DNA of 64,000 nt from Octopus sinensis (GCF_006345805.1 NC_042998.1:115568001-115632000), one strand, 5' to 3'; counted from the stretch's first letter, positions 13,304-44,810 are shown. The notes: generated from the sequence alone by a model not told the origin. Made by a program: numbers and translations.

Positions 13304-13582
13304 ACGTATATTTGCCATTTAAATATGGCTAAACCCTAAGGGTGGATGCTACTGTAGTTTGTAGCCTCAGGATTGTCACACGCCGATGACGGGTCAATAC
13401 CCAGAAACTTGAGTCCGTGTGTATCATAAGTCGGAGACGGGAAGGATGGCTTCCCTTTGCAAATACTGATAGGGCACAGAAAGTGTGTCTATAGCCAGCT
13501 GGAGGAGGTGTCCTCCAGGGGCTACAAACTACAGTAGCATTCACCCTTAGGGGTTAGCCATATTTAAATGGCAAATATACGT
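13304..13582 (+). mobile_element. Fold-back element: 63-bp inverted arms enclosing a hammerhead, next to (TA)n
   Basis: Arms 13304-13366 / 13520-13582 with 2 mismatches. Confidence 0.8.
13377..13421 (+). ncRNA. Minimal type-I hammerhead ribozyme (U4>C variant)
   Basis: cacacg CCGATGA c gggt caat accc a GAAAC ttga GTC cgtgtg: 6-bp stem I, 4-bp stem II, GUC site. Confidence 0.75.
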
Positions 13583-13663
13583 ATATATATATATATATAT
13601 ATATATATATATAAACTTACAGTTCACAAAAGTCGGGATACATGGCCTTCAGTTATTCCATAA

Positions 13664-14168
13664 ATGAGAAATGAATTAAATTCTACAAAACGTACACTTA
13701 GGAGTGACACGAGGACCTTAATTCTTCCTCAGTAATCGACCCCAAATACTTAAACCCAGTTTCGGGCCTTTAACCATAAAAGTAGGAACTTATACTGGTG
13801 GCACCCGCAAGATTTTCTGGTCAAGTTTTTCTCCTTTCTCACTAATTCTGCTTTTATATCCATTTGAAGATTTCCAGGCGTTAATCCATAATTCTCGTGT
13901 TTGCATGAAAGGCTCTTTTTATTATTATATACGTCTATCGTTTCAAATTACATTTGTTTACTTTCGTACGTCTACCCTGAATTGTTTTGTTTGCTGAAGC
14001 CCTAATTCTACACAAATCTTGCGGTTGCCGCCGATATACGAAGTTCCCAGTCTTAACGTTAAAGGCACGTAACTGGGTATAAGTATTTTTAGTCGATAAC
14101 TGAAGAAGAATTATGGTTCTTGTGTCTGCCCTACCTGCATGTTTTGTAGTATTTAATGCATTTTTCAT
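13664..14168. repeat. Old inverted repeat (~150-bp arms, 13664-13815 / 14014-14168) with decayed hammerhead
   Basis: Arms align in reverse complement at roughly three-quarters identity by eye; flanked by (TA)n. Confidence 0.7.
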
Positions 14169-14189
14169 ATATATATATATATATATCAT

Positions 14190-14470
14190 GAGGTAGTGAT
14201 TTCGATTCCAAGACCATGCTGTGTGTGTGCGTTGTGTGTTATTGAGCAAGACACATTATTTCACATGCCCCAATCCACTCCACTGTAGAAATGAGCTGCA
14301 ACGTCACTGGTGCAAGGGTGTATCGGCCTTTTCCTTGGATAATATCGGTGATGTGGAGTGCGGAGACTGGTATGCATGGGCGACTGCTGGTCTCTATAAA
14401 CCACCTTGTGCCTCGGTAGGTAACTTTCTAGGTGCAATCCTATTTTCATTCACGACCAAAGGGGCTTTTT
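14190..14470 (+). mobile_element. SINE family C, partial
   Basis: TTCGATTCC B-box-like and GTGTTATTGAGCAAGACACATTATTTCAC, similar to 35-355. Confidence 0.55.
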
Positions 14471-14799
14471 ATTCTTCTTATATATATATATATATATATA
14501 TATATATATATATATATGCCATTATTCAGTTTATTTCAAGATTTCTTGCCAAACCGGTTTCGAACCTAGATCCAAGGTTCCTTCGTTGGAATTTCAACAT
14601 CAGCAACAGGGTAATTTTGTTTGTTTGTATGTATGTATATATGTTTGTATGTATGTATGTATGTATGTATGTATGTATGTATGTATGTATGTATGTATGT
14701 ATGTATGTATGTATGTATGTATGTATGTATGTATGTATGTATGTATGTATGTATGTATGTATGCATGTATGTATGTTTTATGTATGTATTCTCCTGCAT

Positions 14800-40760: not shown

Positions 40761-41745
40761 TATGATCAATTCTGATCCCAGCTTTTGATATGACCAATTT
40801 CGACCCTAGTTCTCAACATGTACTTATTTTATCGACCCTAAAATGATGGAAGGCAAAGTCGACATCGGCAGAATTTGAACTCAGACCATGAACACAGACG
40901 AAATACTGCTTAGCATTTTGCTCGGCCTGCTAAAGATTCTGTCAGTCAGCTCCCCAAGCTTACAACAACGGCGACAAGGAGAAGAAGGAGAAGAAAAAGA
41001 AGAAGAAGAAGAAGAAGAAGAAGAAGAAGAACAAGAAGAACAAGAAGAAGAACAAGAAGAAGAAGAAGAAGAAGAAGAACAACAACAACAACAACAAGAA
41101 ATCGTGTGCACATTGAGGAGCAAGAATCAAAACGATGATATACATATTCATTCTTGTATGTTGCAGCAGATTTGAATATGTATCTGGAAAATGCTGTTGT
41201 ATTACACTATTGGAGAACAACTCATTTCTGACGAATGTGTGTTCATAGCACGCTTGATTCACAAGGCAAATGTACTTTGGTCAGCGGCGTTTCGACCTGT
41301 TTCAATATCTCATCAGCTGAAGCTTCCCTGACTATGGCTCGAACAAGACACTTGTTTATAAAATTTGGCACGCAAATTTCTTGCTGATGTGTATTAATGT
41401 CTGCCAACCGGTAATAAATTAAAAGTTCTAAATATTATAAATCTTTTCTGTGATAATATTTTATTGCTGACGACACTTTGTGAGTTCAAACGTTATGCTT
41501 GAAAAAAACTTATATATTGAATGAAGTCACTCACAAAATCGAAACTTATAATATGGAATGAAACAGAAGACCTAATCAAAATTTTAAACATAATGAAACA
41601 ATGTTTTGAAAATCTAAAAATTTATGCAATAAATTAAAAATAAGAGAATTTCCGTGAGTCCAGCGAGTTAACAATAATATAGTTTAGATATACAGATATT
41701 TATAGAAGGAATATAAAGCTACGATTTTTTCACTAAGCAGTTAAA

Positions 41746-43012
41746 GCGTAGGAGTGGCTGTGTGGTAAGTAGCTCGCTAACTTTCGACGTGTTCGGACGT
41801 GTTTTTTGGCTGCTGCCGGATGTCACGTCTTTCAGCGTGAATTATTGAATTTTGAGGCTCGACTACAGGTTGGTGTCTGTTGTATTTTTTTCGGGGCTTA
41901 GTGAAGTTTATTGCTCTGTATTTATTATTTTTTGGAGAGTAATAGACTCCACTTTGCTCCAGACATTTTCCTGCTTGTGGTCGAGCGTAAAGACTCACTT
42001 TGCAGTGAGAATTGTGGTTTTTGAGGAGGCGGAGCCCCTCCTCAAATATTAATTGCCTTTGTGTTGGATTTACCAAGAAGCACCAAGGATAACCAAGGAG
42101 AAACAATATGTGGTCCTCTTCTACAAAGGAGGAACGCTTTGTAGATAGGTAAAATGAGAAGGAGAGGCCAATGGGAGAGACTTCGGTCCTGCACGGAGGA
42201 CCCCGAGTGGCCTTCGGAGGTGGCTGCGGAGGTCCTATTGGATAACGATCTGTGCAGGATCGCGAATTCCTTCCCGGAGGACTCCTTTCAATTTATACCT
42301 GTATGGTACGGCCTGACAAAGAATGATTGCCTCAATGAAGCAATAGCGCTGGTCGAACGGGTGACTTGAACTTTTTGAATGTTTTAAAAAGGAAAATTGT
42401 ATCATATTGAGAAAGAGGTTCATTGCCTCATTGTGACTTTTGTGAAATTTGTGACTTTTTGAATTTTTTGAAAAAAGAACATTGTCTTAGAGAAGCGGAA
42501 GTCGGCGGGCGCTTTCGTCTTCTCCCGTCACCATCTTCGTTCCATCACCATCATTCATACCATCAATATCTACGTCCAGCCCGCAAAGCCACATCTATGT
42601 ACTGCCTTCATGGCAAATTTAATGAATAAAAGTAGCTTGCTTACCAACCACATGTTTCTGGGTTCAGTGCCACTGCATGGTACCTTGGGCAAGTGTCTTC
42701 TCCGGCCGACCAAAGCTTTGTGAGTGGATTTGGTGGACGGAAACTGAAAGAAGCCTGTCGTATATATATATATATATATATAATATATGTGTGTGTGTGT
42801 GTGTGTGTGTGTGTGTGTGTGTTTGTCTGTGTTCCCCCCACAACATTGCTTGACAACCGTGTTGTTATGTCCTCCTAACTTAGCGGTTCGGCGAAAGAGA
42901 CCGATAGAATAAGTACTAGGCTTACAAAGAATAAGTCCTGGGGTCGATTTGCTCGACTAAAGGCGGTGCTCCAGCATGGCCACAGTCAAATGACTTGAAA
43001 CTAGTAAAAGAG
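41746..43012 (+). mobile_element. SINE family A split by an 848-bp retroposed insert (41782-42629)
   Basis: 15-bp duplication AAGTAGCT(C/T)GCT(A/T)AC at 41767-41781 and 42630-42644; insert ends AATGAATAA. Confidence 0.85.
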
Positions 43013-43954
43013 TTGTGCGGCAGATGACAGAGACCTAATGCTGATGTTACGTTTGTAAAACGCTGTGCTTTAGATCCTACGGTGTTAAGTGGATATTACA
43101 AAAACTGCGTCGGATTTTTCGTCAAAAGTTCCGAGTTTCAGATCCATAGAAAAGCACAATAGCCGTAACAAAAAGAACAAGAGCGGCAGCAGCAGCGGCG
43201 GCAGTAGTAGCAGCAACAACAACCACAACAACAACAACAATCACGACTATACCTTGAAAACGTTTAGATTTCAAACGTTTTATGGTAATGCTGATAGGGT
43301 TTCAGGCGGGGATTACTGGTCGTTTTATTTGTTAGAAATAGCAGCCAAAACCTCGCACATTTTACACAATACCATATTTGAACAAAAATTGAAGCACGCA
43401 TTACACAAATTCTTCCTATATATTCCTACAAGAATGGACGGCCGTTTCTGGAACATTTCTTTCATCGTGGTCTTGCAGCACAAAATTTAAAATAATGATA
43501 GATAAGTAAAATAAAACAATAACAGCAGAAAAATAAGCAATGATGAATTAACTTTAAATTCCGCTTTAAGCAATTCTGGTATATCAAATCCGATTGTTTC
43601 ATAACATGATTTCTTCGGTTTTAATTGCACTTTCTTAACGATTAAAACTTATAGTTCATAGAGTTAAGAAACTACAGCGTTCAAGGGAGATAACTTTTGC
43701 AAAATTATAAGGGAGAGAACTAAGGATGCTTTAGTATGAACTAATTGTTTAGTGCTACGTTAAGTCTGATTGATGATGAAAGACATTCCTCCCATGATCA
43801 TTGCGACTTTTTGTTGAGAGATAGTATAGTCATGACTACAAACCAGTATACCTTCCTTCTTTTTCTGGGATAATAGAGTGCATTATTATTTCCAGCAGCT
43901 CCTACCATCCTTACGAAAAAGAAACTGGAAAGGAAGATATATTTTACATTTATT

Positions 43955-44292
43955 TTGTTTACGTGTTTCAGTCATTAGACTGCGGCCATGCTGTGGCATT
44001 GCCTTGAAGTAATATTTATCATTATTTACTTATTCTATCAATTTCTTTTGCCGAACCGCTTGGCTATGGGGACCTAAACACACCAACACAGGTTGTCAAG
44101 CGGTGGCGGATTACACACACGCACACACACGCATATGCGCGCGCGCGCGCGCGCACACACACATACACACACACACACTCACAGACGCACTCATAAGGCA
44201 TTAGTCGGCCCGAGGCTAAAGTAGAACACACTTACCCAAGGTGCCACACAGTGGGATTGAACCCGGGCAGAAACTCCTTACCGCAGAGCCAC
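43955..44292 (-). mobile_element. SINE family A
   Basis: Reverse complement of tail and head with internal (CA)/(CG) repeat. Confidence 0.75.
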
Positions 44293-44620
44293 AACGATTT
44301 CTAAAATTTCTAAACTCATTTCTCGATAAATAAAATGCTAGCTAAAGAATGGTATAAAATTTTGTGTGCAGAATATATGGTACGTAATTATAATTTCAGA
44401 AAATAATTTCAAGTGAATTTTAGAAATATTCTCTCACTAGCAGTATAACCCGGCCTTGCCCGGGATTAAGTTACGATTATTAAGCTAATCAAGTTCTTTA
44501 TTTCAAACCAAACTAAGTAATATCAACGTCAAATTTGGGCAAAATCCGTTGAAATTGGCTATATTATATATATATATATATATATATATATATATATATA
44601 TATATATATATATATATATA

Positions 44621-44810
44621 TATTTTATAGAAGGAGCTTCTACAGGACTAGAACTGTTTCATTCAAATGAAATCATCAGGAAGATGATTTCATTTGAATG
44701 AAACAGTTCTAGTCCTGTAGAAGCTCCTTCTATAAAATAAATTAATTTACTCTGCTATGTATTGAGTACCTTATTTACTGTGGTTAACCCCGACTCAACC
44801 CGGGACCTAC
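44621..44810. mobile_element. Perfect 57-bp fold-back hammerhead element inside (TA)n
   Basis: Arms 44621-44677 / 44683-44739 are exact reverse complements; loop AGGAA; (TA)n on both sides. Confidence 0.9.
44637..44683 (-). ncRNA. Type-I hammerhead ribozyme, intact core
   Basis: cttc CTGATGA t ttc attt gaa t GAAAC ag ttctagtc ct GTA gaag: stem I cttc/gaag, stem III acag/ctgt, GUA site. Confidence 0.8.

What the first reader, a model, noticed from the sequence alone, without database searches (positions are those of the whole stretch)
13304..44739. Recurrent fold-back architecture: an inverted truncated copy is joined just upstream of the hammerhead
Seen: in unrelated elements at 13304, 22711 and 44621 (and more loosely 13664) the ribozyme-bearing copy starts only about 0-30 nt before stem I. 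It is preceded by an antisense copy of its own downstream sequence, and at 22711 and 44621 that copy is truncated inside the HHR. Known: Penelope-like elements often have inverted 5'-truncated pLTRs. Inference: a shared integration mechanism (template switch or snap-back at the ribozyme) yields hairpins in which the antisense arm is transcribed first. That arm could mask the ribozyme and generate long dsRNA for ADAR or siRNA pathways.
Basis: partly seen in the sequence, partly recalled or inferred. Interest (0 to 1): 0.75.

Follow-up and report, generated by a model that had tools for sequence, protein, structure and literature searches.

The report
Penelope-type fold-back insertion scars
The four hairpin-shaped repeats are ordinary two-armed insertion scars of Penelope-like jumping genes, likely made in one landing event when both cut DNA strands primed a copy, and the join is not tied to the hammerhead-like motif.

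Summary
All four inverted repeats are in the sequence. They belong to four families with no detectable similarity to each other. Only part of the ribozyme claim holds. Site 13304 has a full hammerhead-like topology with a changed core (CCGATGA). Site 22711 has a decayed motif. At 44621 both arms are cut inside the motif. Site 13664 has no full motif. No Rfam hammerhead hit appeared where I could see all rows.

Copies elsewhere in the genome show the known insertion architecture of endonuclease-bearing Penelope-like elements (PLEs). In family 1, 28 of 52 loci hold a head-to-head pair, against 1 tail-to-tail. Of 16 informative pairs, 13 are flanked as one unit by a 7-15 nt target duplication. 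In 23 of 23 classifiable pairs one arm carries the roughly 45-nt 3' "tail" and the other lacks it.

The join is not at the ribozyme. Only 8 of 56 junction ends lie within 10 nt of the motif, against 10.5 expected, and 12 of 28 pairs lack the core in both arms. The likely cause is priming of reverse transcription on both cleaved target strands. The dsRNA/ADAR idea is untested. This scan reached the same reading before on other genomes.

The parts
13256..13370 (-). Site 1 (family F1), antisense arm. It is a 5'-truncated copy (unit 282 to 353, then 1 to 45) and carries the 45-nt 3' extension ('tail'). Its outer end abuts (TA)n-like sequence.
   Evidence: L001 positions 1390-1506 correspond to window 13256-13372.
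13371..13582 (+). Site 1 (F1), sense arm, unit 139 to 350, without the tail and followed by (TA)n at 13583-13613. The hammerhead-like motif runs 13377-13421: stem I CACACG/CGTGTG, core CCGATGA, stem III A-C-TTGA-G-T, predicted cut after C13415.
   Evidence: The family core census gives CCGATGA 28 of 35 and CTGATGA 1 of 35.
13614..13815 (-). Site 4 (family F4), antisense arm. It carries a 53-nt extension at its outer end (13614-13666).
13816..14166 (+). Site 4 (F4), sense arm. It is 5'-truncated, since other copies of the family run at least 100 nt further 5'. It ends at GCATTTTTC followed by (TA)n at 14167-14186. CTGAAGA sits at 14101 and there is no full hammerhead.
22711..23081 (-). Site 2 (family F2), antisense arm. 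It is cut at the equivalent of 23165-23188 and ends at the equivalent of 23553, the short 3' end, next to a microsatellite.
23089..23668 (+). Site 2 (F2), sense arm, reaching the long 3' end and followed by (CA)n. The decayed hammerhead-like motif is CTGATGA 23131-23137, stem II AAAGG/CCTTT, GAAA 23201-23204 and loop III GATC. The window copy has lost the stem I 3' strand. The family is the 3' region of a PLE that encodes a GIY-YIG endonuclease.
44623..44677 (-). Site 3 (family F3), short arm. Read on the minus strand it begins at TCCTGATGA, and it ends at the internal AT-rich 3' end next to (TA)n.
44683..44810 (+). Site 3 (F3), long arm. It begins at GATGA and runs to the full 3' end (GGGACCTAC) followed by (TA)n. 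The loop AGGAA occupies 44678-44682.

Best explanation
These are head-to-head (fold-back) insertions of four unrelated short Penelope-like retroelement families, and each pair was likely produced in a single integration in which both cleaved target strands primed reverse transcription, one from each of the element's two 3' start sites.

Shown by the calls:
- The pairs are common and almost always head to head.
- Target-site duplications flank the pair as a whole.
- The outer end of each arm is a normal 3' terminus of the family.
- One arm carries the 3' extension ('tail') and the other does not.
- The inner break points are scattered along the element, and the joints have 0-5 nt of overlap or filler in most cases.

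Inferred: the endonuclease makes staggered cuts in AT-rich or microsatellite DNA. Each 3'-OH would start a cDNA on element RNA. One reverse transcriptase would then jump from the RNA onto the other cDNA, which joins the two 5'-truncated copies head to head.

The hammerhead-like motif is a passenger. It lies 70-330 nt from the 3' start sites, so short dead-on-arrival copies often end near it.
For: Family 1. The sample was 60 loci from two searches, with 8 duplicates dropped (L006, L009, L090, L093, L094, L100, L103, L114), leaving 52 loci.
- Adjacent pairs: 28 head-to-head against 1 tail-to-tail.
- Tail rule: 23 pairs are discordant, 0 concordant and 5 unclassifiable. Solo copies are 19 without the tail and 8 with it, so independent choice would predict about 42% discordant.
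- 13 of 16 informative pairs share a 7-15 nt word in their two outer flanks, against 7% for mismatched flanks.
- The arms of a pair differ by 3.5% against 5.1% between pairs, and 0 of 5000 permutations reach this (21 of the 28 pairs were usable).
- Joints mostly show 0-5 nt of overlap or filler.

Family 3: 15 of 15 pairs have one short and one long 3' end.

Family 2: 10 of 30 loci have an inverted partner upstream. Four pairs are discordant in 3' end, 0 concordant and 6 unclassifiable.

All four window sites have one arm with the extension and one without.

Link to PLEs.
- A GIY-YIG reading frame lies about 300 nt upstream of the family-2 region in L054 (E 1.6e-4, 22.4 bits against a 22.6 cut-off).
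- Endonuclease remnants lie upstream in 3-5 of 30 family-2 loci.
- A protein search of the genome gave 9523 first-look candidates, and all 150 scored had E<=1.1e-15.
- A 919-aa open frame has a C-terminal GIY-YIG at 25.9 bits, above the cut-off, and a YRDD motif is visible in its translation.

Literature.
- PMC8557442 (passages read) states that PLE insertions often have an inverted 5'-truncated copy adjacent at the 5' end, partial tandems, a 30-40 bp tail often at only one end, hammerheads in the pseudo-LTRs, and (TA)n targets.
- PMC11167929 (main text read) reports that a purified PLE protein cleaves and extends both target strands and uses two reverse-transcription start sites with the tail between them. 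It also reports that hammerhead cleavage is not needed for insertion in vitro.
Against: - In vitro, no difference in start site between top and bottom strands was seen (PMC11167929). The strict one-of-each rule therefore needs an extra assumption.
- Some pairs have equal inner ends (248/248, 263/263, 222/221, 136/136), two of them at short internal palindromes. A snap-back would explain these as well.
- Two inverted partners carry the 5' end, not the 3' end (L013 in family 1, L037 in family 2).
- Copy starts are not uniform. In family 2, 24 of 29 copies that reach the motif start 8-51 nt upstream of CTGATGA (an 11-nt indel blurs the exact values). Family 1 has a small hot spot at unit 136-140 (5 of 84).
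- In family 3, four loci share the same AGGAA joint.
- Pfam does not detect a reverse transcriptase in the 919-aa frame, and the Atlas neighbours are only a lead.
- Families 1, 3 and 4 were not linked to an autonomous element.
- Both family-1 samples are the best-scoring 40 of 1680 and of 923 candidates. The first sample required unit 140-281 to be present.
- No raw long reads were available to confirm the palindromes.
Confidence: 0.75

Rival explanations
1. One reading: a single cDNA snaps back, or the enzyme switches template, at the hammerhead. The ribozyme itself would then define the inversion point.
For: - At three window sites the join lies within about 40 nt of the motif.
- Family 1 has a minor hot spot of starts at unit 136-140, just before stem I (5 of 84), including one snap-back-like copy (L013).
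- Family-3 joints all lie within about 10-15 nt of CTGATGA.
- Family-2 copies mostly start 8-51 nt before CTGATGA (24 of 29).
Against: - Family 1: 8 of 56 junction ends fall in unit 135-200 against 10.5 expected, and 12 of 28 pairs lack the core in both arms.
- Family 1: 0 of 84 starts lie at the cleavage site.
- Family 2: partner break points run from 23165 to 23515, with 1 of 9 inside the motif.
- Site 4's joint is 285 nt from any core-like word.
- The arm with the tail is sometimes the tail alone (L022 48 nt, L095 28 nt), and the two arms show no length order.
- The family-2 start zone is shared by solo copies, so it is a property of the copy's 5' end and not of the inversion.
Confidence: 0.07
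2. For family 3 only: the palindrome is itself the unit that multiplies. It would be a fold-back element copied as a whole, and its centre would later erode by small deletions.
For: - Every one of the 15 pairs has the same short-arm and long-arm layout.
- The window, L065, L068 and L070 share the AGGAA joint.
- Only 15 first-look candidates were found.
Against: - At least 8 different joints occur among about 14 loci.
- In the window the short arm keeps TCCTGATGA, while in L068 the long arm does, which plain copying of one master does not give.
- One private change is mirrored in both arms (L070), as expected if both arms were copied from one RNA.
- The same one-short, one-long rule holds in family 1, where the joints clearly differ from pair to pair.
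Confidence: 0.1
3. The pairs are two independent insertions of the same family into one hot spot such as a (TA)n tract, in opposite orientation by chance.
For: These elements prefer (TA)n and AT-rich DNA. In family 1, 11 of 28 pairs and 10 of 27 solo copies lie in (TA)n.
Against: - Orientation is 28 to 1.
- The gap at the joint is mostly -5 to +5 nt.
- Target duplications flank the pair, not each arm (13 of 16).
- No pair has the same 3' end type on both arms (0 of 23).
- The two arms of a pair are more alike than arms of different pairs.
Confidence: 0.02
4. The palindromes are assembly artefacts or later DNA rearrangements such as replication fold-back in microsatellites.
For: - The site-3 palindrome is perfect and sits in (TA)n.
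- Short-read contigs from four runs did not span it.
- PMC8557442 warns that such structures trouble assemblies.
Against: - Arms at sites 1, 2 and 4 have diverged (about 96%, 77-80% and 79% alike).
- The same architecture recurs at dozens of loci with different flanks and with target duplications.
- Fold-back frequency is the same inside and outside (TA)n.
Confidence: 0.04

Closest known systems
Insertion units of endonuclease-bearing Penelope-like elements (pseudo-LTR, adjacent inverted 5'-truncated copy, 30-40 bp tail), as described in PMC8557442
   Same: - An inverted 5'-truncated copy abuts the 5' end.
- Heavy 5' truncation.
- Partial tandems (family 1: 1.34 and 2.1 units).
- An extension at one end only.
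- (TA)n or AT-rich targets with duplications of variable length.
- A hammerhead-like motif near the 3' part.
- A GIY-YIG frame upstream of family 2.
   Different: - The copies seen are short (about 70-600 nt) and mostly lack any reading frame.
- The extensions are 45-113 nt, not 30-40 bp.
- The family-1 motif has C where the hammerhead core has U (CCGATGA).
- The strict one-tail-per-pair count, 38 of 38 in two families, is more categorical than 'often'.
Animal non-LTR retrozymes: short tandem hammerhead repeats regarded as non-autonomous PLE derivatives (PMC7229834 abstract from a search listing; bioRxiv 10.64898/2026.07.22.740005 passages)
   Same: Family 1 has a 353-nt unit with a type-I hammerhead-like motif and no reading frame, occurs in partial tandems, and has a high copy number (at least 1680 first-look candidates).
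   Different: - No long tandem arrays were seen; the longest was 2.1 units.
- The core is changed in 28 of 35 copies.
- Circular RNA and self-cleavage were not tested.
- Most copies are dispersed, 5'-truncated and often paired head to head.
Twin priming of human LINE-1, which gives 5'-inverted insertions (recalled from memory, not from a call)
   Same: Both target strands would prime cDNA synthesis in one integration, giving an inverted segment inside one target duplication.
   Different: In LINE-1 the inverted and direct parts are different, adjoining stretches of the RNA. Here both arms copy the same 3' region, giving an inverted duplication, and each starts at a defined 3' start site.
MITEs and fold-back DNA transposons
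   Same: Short, non-coding, hairpin-forming and dispersed. One true MITE-like element lies in the window at 6199-6369.
   Different: - Arm lengths and joints differ from copy to copy.
- Outer ends are retroelement 3' termini.
- Target duplications vary from 7 to 15 nt.
- Solo one-armed copies are about as common as pairs.

Membership tests
EN+ Penelope-like element insertion unit | An inverted 5'-truncated copy immediately adjacent to the 5' end of a sense copy | tested here: met
   Family 1 has it in 28 of 52 loci and family 2 in 10 of 30. All family-3 loci and all four window sites have it.
EN+ Penelope-like element insertion unit | Frequent 5' truncation and partial tandems (pseudo-LTR) | tested here: met
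   The 84 family-1 copy starts are spread over the whole 353-nt unit. L023 holds 1.34 units with the target duplication CTATTTTAT, and L002 holds 2.1 units. Tandems were not seen for families 2-4.
EN+ Penelope-like element insertion unit | A 3' extension ('tail') present at only one end, reflecting two reverse-transcription start sites | tested here: met
   In family 1, 23 of 23 classifiable pairs have one arm with the tail and one without, and solo copies use both ends (19 and 8). In family 3 the count is 15 of 15. The lengths, 45-113 nt, exceed the published 30-40 bp.
EN+ Penelope-like element insertion unit | AT-rich or microsatellite targets with target-site duplication | tested here: met
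   11-12 of 28 family-1 pairs lie in (TA)n. 13 of 16 informative pairs have 7-15 nt duplications.
EN+ Penelope-like element insertion unit | An autonomous partner encoding a reverse transcriptase plus a GIY-YIG endonuclease | tested here: inconclusive
   GIY-YIG lies upstream of family 2 at 22.4 bits, just under the cut-off, and reaches 25.9 bits in a 919-aa frame. YRDD is seen by eye, but Pfam gives no RVT_1 hit. Atlas neighbours carry RVT_1 and GIY-YIG in 21-49% of members. Families 1, 3 and 4 were not linked to any partner.
Hammerhead ribozyme, type I | Core CUGANGA...GAAA with three helices and a cleavable H17, recognised by the Rfam models | tested here: not met
   Rfam gives 0 at gathering scores and no hammerhead row at E<=10 in 13200-14100 or 46150-48400. 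Site 1 has the topology but CCGATGA. The site-2 window copy lacks stem I pairing. Both arms at site 3 are truncated. Site 4 has no GAAA. The motifs at 46301(-) and 47676(+) meet my descriptor with canonical cores but are outside the finding.
Animal non-LTR retrozyme | Tandem arrays of 170-400 nt units with an active hammerhead that yield circular RNA | tested here: inconclusive
   The unit size (353 nt) and the motif fit. Arrays of at most 2.1 units were seen. Activity and circular RNA are not testable with these tools.
LINE-1-type twin-priming inversion | The inverted and direct segments are adjoining, non-overlapping parts of the RNA | tested here: not met
   Both arms cover the same 3' region, so the result is an inverted duplication.
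MITE / fold-back DNA transposon | Fixed terminal inverted repeats and a target duplication of fixed length | tested here: not met
   Arm lengths, joints and duplication lengths vary between copies, and one-armed copies are common.

The most novel reading that the evidence does not exclude
Each fold-back pair is the footprint of one PLE particle, perhaps a dimer, working on one RNA. It primes on both cleaved target strands and uses its two 3' start sites exactly once each. That would explain why the tail sits at only one end of PLE insertions, why the tail-bearing arm can be the tail alone (the trailing enzyme blocked by the leading one), and why arm lengths are correlated. The rule held in 38 of 38 classifiable pairs in two unrelated families and at all four window sites. 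In vitro the two strands showed no start-site preference, so the coupling would be a new constraint on the integration mechanism.
Probability: 0.35. Interest if true: 0.55.

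Novelty: new member of a known kind. Interest (0 to 1): 0.27.

Why it matters
It is not a ribozyme-guided inversion, so it should not be filed as a new class of mobile hairpin, a MITE or a microRNA precursor. Rfam's microRNA models gave weak sub-threshold hits on the site-3 palindrome.

For people who study these elements, this genome offers a large and young sample. More than half of the sampled family-1 insertions are fold-backs. 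Target duplications show that each pair arose in one event. The tail is on exactly one arm in every classifiable pair. These counts bear on how the tandem and inverted structures and the tail arise, a point the literature still calls open (PMC8557442).

They also support the published in vitro result that hammerhead cleavage is not needed for insertion: no copy starts at the predicted cleavage site, and a young, abundant family carries a changed core.

Tried and rejected
- Rfam. Gathering scores gave nothing. At E<=10 there was no hammerhead among the visible rows (150 of 338 shown) or. The hits on the site-3 palindrome were weak microRNA-model matches to a plain hairpin.
- Fold energies of six hammerhead-like stretches were no better than shuffles.
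- Sequencing runs. 24 coded runs were listed and no RNA holder was listed.
- Read laying. Contigs of X2, X3, X4 and X7 laid on 44380-44960 were dominated by repeat copies. None spanned the palindrome, so they neither confirm nor deny it.
- A second laying, on 22715-23560, did not complete: all reported the machine busy.
- I tested whether the palindromic (TA)n target drives fold-back formation and rejected it: 11 of 28 pairs and 10 of 27 solo copies lie in (TA)n, Fisher p = 1.
- I tested a single-primer hairpin model in which the tail-bearing arm is the first strand and so the longer one, and rejected it: 10 pairs fit, 11 go the other way and 2 are equal.
- I tested whether copies start at the hammerhead cleavage site: 0 of 84 do.
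- Pfam search for a reverse transcriptase in the 919-aa frame gave none, even at E<=5.
- PMC522041, the Penelope endonuclease paper, is not held.
- Literature searches for a PLE twin-priming model found 2 unrelated papers. A search on tail, inverted and truncated found 3 papers, 2 of them listed, adding nothing beyond PMC8557442.
- This scan's notebook has no notes on this genome.

Full report
**What is in the window**

The window lies in a 2.72-Gb genome of 13,516 contigs. It is AT-rich and full of microsatellites. The other four are:
- a head-to-head palindrome of a tRNA-like SINE at 58405-58541;
- a SINE pair at 40387/40800;
- a MITE-like element at 6199-6369;
- a weak pair at 42810/44027.

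The four sites belong to four families with no detectable similarity to each other.

**The hammerhead claim**

Rfam finds no family at gathering scores. No hammerhead row appears at E<=10 in 13200-14100 or in 46150-48400. The whole-window E-value list showed only its best 150 of 338 rows, none of them a hammerhead.

The word pattern CTGANGA-N6-30-GAAA occurs 14 times against 3.0 expected. A topology descriptor of my own required:
- stem I of at least 5 bp;
- the core;
- stem II of at least 3 bp;
- GAAA;
- a short stem III;
- H17.

It finds 47676(+) and 46301(-) with canonical cores, and 13383(+) if C is allowed at core position 4. The 60 shuffles gave a mean of 0.017 hits. Fold energies give no support.

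The motifs are therefore non-random and hammerhead-like, of the short-stem-III kind, but unproven as ribozymes.
- Site 1. In family 1 the core reads CCGATGA in 28 of 35 copies and CTGATGA in 1. By recalled knowledge of the hammerhead core, that change should cripple cleavage.
- Site 2. The family majority has UUUUCUC-CUGAUGA-AAAGG...CCUUU-GAAA-C-GAUC-G-U-A followed by GAGAU. By my reading of the alignment, CTGATGA is kept in about 19 of 29 copies. The window copy has lost the stem I 3' strand.
- Site 3. A complete motif exists only in copies with longer arms, such as L072. In the window both arms begin inside or 3 nt before the core.
- Site 4. The family majority has CTGATGA plus a stem II but no GAAA.

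**What the families look like elsewhere**

*Family 1.* The query window:13367-13512 gave 1680 first-look candidates with copies 96-98% alike. The unit is 353 nt, taken from the natural copy L023:1363-1715. Insertions are circularly permuted stretches of it. L023 holds 1.34 units flanked by CTATTTTAT, and L002 holds 2.1 units.

A second, less biased sample was anchored on the last 63 nt (923 candidates). After dropping 8 duplicate or redundant loci, 52 loci with 84 copies remained. The results were:
- 28 adjacent head-to-head pairs against 1 tail-to-tail pair;
- joints with mostly 0-5 nt of overlap or filler;
- 13 of 16 pairs outside (TA)n sharing a 7-15 nt word in their two outer flanks, against 7% of mismatched flanks;
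- arms of a pair differing by 3.5% against 5.1% between pairs, with 0 of 5000 permutations reaching this.

Each pair was therefore made in one integration event.

*Family 2.* There are 96 candidates, 77-90% alike. Ten of 30 loci have an inverted partner upstream.

*Family 3.* There are 15 candidates, and every copy is a pair.

*Family 4.* There are 531 candidates, about 80% alike. The close inverted matches listed are all in head-to-head order.

**The join is not at the ribozyme**

In family 1 the motif spans unit 144-190.
- 8 of 56 junction ends fall in unit 135-200 against 10.5 expected under uniformity.
- 12 of 28 pairs have no core in either arm.
- No copy start lies within 3 nt of the predicted cleavage site.
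- A small hot spot at unit 136-140 (5 of 84) includes the window copy. A stronger hot spot lies at 244-254, far from the motif.

In family 2 the partners' break points run from 23165 to 23515 in window coordinates, and only the window's own falls inside the motif.

In family 2 the sense copies that reach the motif mostly begin 8-51 nt upstream of CTGATGA (24 of 29). Four extend at least 117 nt further, and one starts downstream. Solo copies share this start zone. I take it to be the usual 5' end of the template RNA, perhaps a start site in the pseudo-LTR, but that is inference.

The motif lies 70-330 nt from the 3' ends, which is close to the usual length of these truncated copies. That geometry is enough to put many joints near it.

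**The tail rule**

Family-1 copies end either at unit 345-353/1-10 or about 45 nt further on, at unit 40-66. Solo copies use both ends (19 and 8).
- In pairs, 23 have one of each, none has two alike, and 5 are unclassifiable.
- In family 3 all 15 pairs have one short and one long 3' end.
- In family 2 four pairs are discordant, none concordant, and six unclassifiable.
- All four window sites obey the rule.
- The arm with the tail is not systematically the longer one (10 against 11, 2 equal). It can be the tail alone: L022 is 48 nt and L095 is 28 nt.
- Arm lengths are correlated (Spearman 0.45, p = 0.017).

**Identity**

Upstream of the family-2 region some copies continue into a GIY-YIG reading frame. 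The genome holds thousands of such frames: 9523 first-look candidates, and all 150 scored were significant. [quoted passage not shown] Pfam sees no reverse transcriptase domain. The protein Atlas places the frame beside clusters that carry RVT_1 and GIY-YIG, which is a lead only.

**Comparison with the literature**

PMC8557442 (passages) describes exactly this package for Penelope-like elements:
- heavy 5' truncation;
- partial tandems;
- an inverted 5'-truncated copy adjacent at the 5' end;
- a 30-40 bp tail often at one end only;
- hammerheads in the pseudo-LTRs;
- (TA)n targets.

It calls the mechanism open.

PMC11167929 (main text) shows that a purified element cleaves and extends both target strands. 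It uses two start sites with the tail between them, prefers AT-rich DNA, and does not need hammerhead cleavage.

The bioRxiv preprint 10.64898/2026.07.22.740005 (passages) argues that animal retrozymes derive from PLE pseudo-LTRs.

My searches found no paper proposing twin priming for these elements or stating a strict one-tail-per-pair rule. These searches cover only the held library, and I did not consult supplementary files.

**Mechanism**

- Shown: one event per pair, genuine 3' termini at both outer ends, scattered inner ends, and small overlaps or fillers at the joint.
- Inferred: both 3'-OH ends of the staggered cut prime cDNA synthesis, one from each start site. One enzyme then jumps from the RNA to the other cDNA and joins the copies head to head.

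A snap-back of a single cDNA remains possible for the minority of exact palindromes and for the two partners that carry the 5' end (L013, L037). It does not explain tail-only arms or the lack of a length order.

**Verdict**

The specific inference, a switch at the ribozyme, is not supported. The structure is a known kind of insertion scar. Earlier notes of this scan on other genomes reached the same reading. They are not independent evidence.

Noticed in passing
window 58405-58541: A head-to-head palindrome (87% match) of two 5'-truncated copies of a tRNA-like SINE with no hammerhead motif. The sense arm stops early next to an (ATA)n tract. Fold-back joints are therefore not confined to the hammerhead-bearing families.
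   Followed up: partly
window 46235-46312 (-), 47664-47736 (+), 48230-48300 (+): Hammerhead-like motifs with the canonical CTGATGA core and short stem III (loops TGCG, CCGGG and CCGG) and no inverted partner. The copies at 47676 and 48242 are one family, 91% alike, and each starts about 30 nt after a (TA)n tract.
   Followed up: partly
window 55861-58041 (+): A 726-aa open frame with RVT_1 (E 4e-28) and zf-RVT. It looks like a LINE-type reverse transcriptase unrelated to the fold-back families.
   Followed up: no
window 52425-53060 (-): An open frame with an UNC-6/NTR/C345C module (E 7e-9), possibly a host exon.
   Followed up: no
window 6199-6369: A 171-nt MITE-like element with terminal inverted repeats of about 50 nt and no retroelement features.
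   Followed up: no
L153:1613-2332: The first 240 residues of the 919-aa frame look like the C-terminal end of another PLE-type protein, including a second GIY-YIG-like word (IIYVIKC...YVGST). This suggests two elements fused in frame, in tandem or nested.
   Followed up: no
L091, L093, L094 (G000 C12327 and two places on C23): The same family-1 fold-back, with identical break points, occurs at three places. This is either a segmental duplication or assembly redundancy. It was counted once.
   Followed up: no
window 44640-44800: Summed contig depths of 10^5-10^6 in four runs carrying at least three species labels show that sequence related to family 3 is far more abundant than the 15 candidates of the genome search suggest. 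Loose ends show related copies with other 5' parts.
   Followed up: no
family 1, unit 244-254 (loci L091-L119): The strongest hot spot of copy starts, 11 of 84, lies far downstream of the hammerhead-like motif. It is unexplained.
   Followed up: no
window 2463-2562: An assembly gap: a run of 100 N.
   Followed up: no
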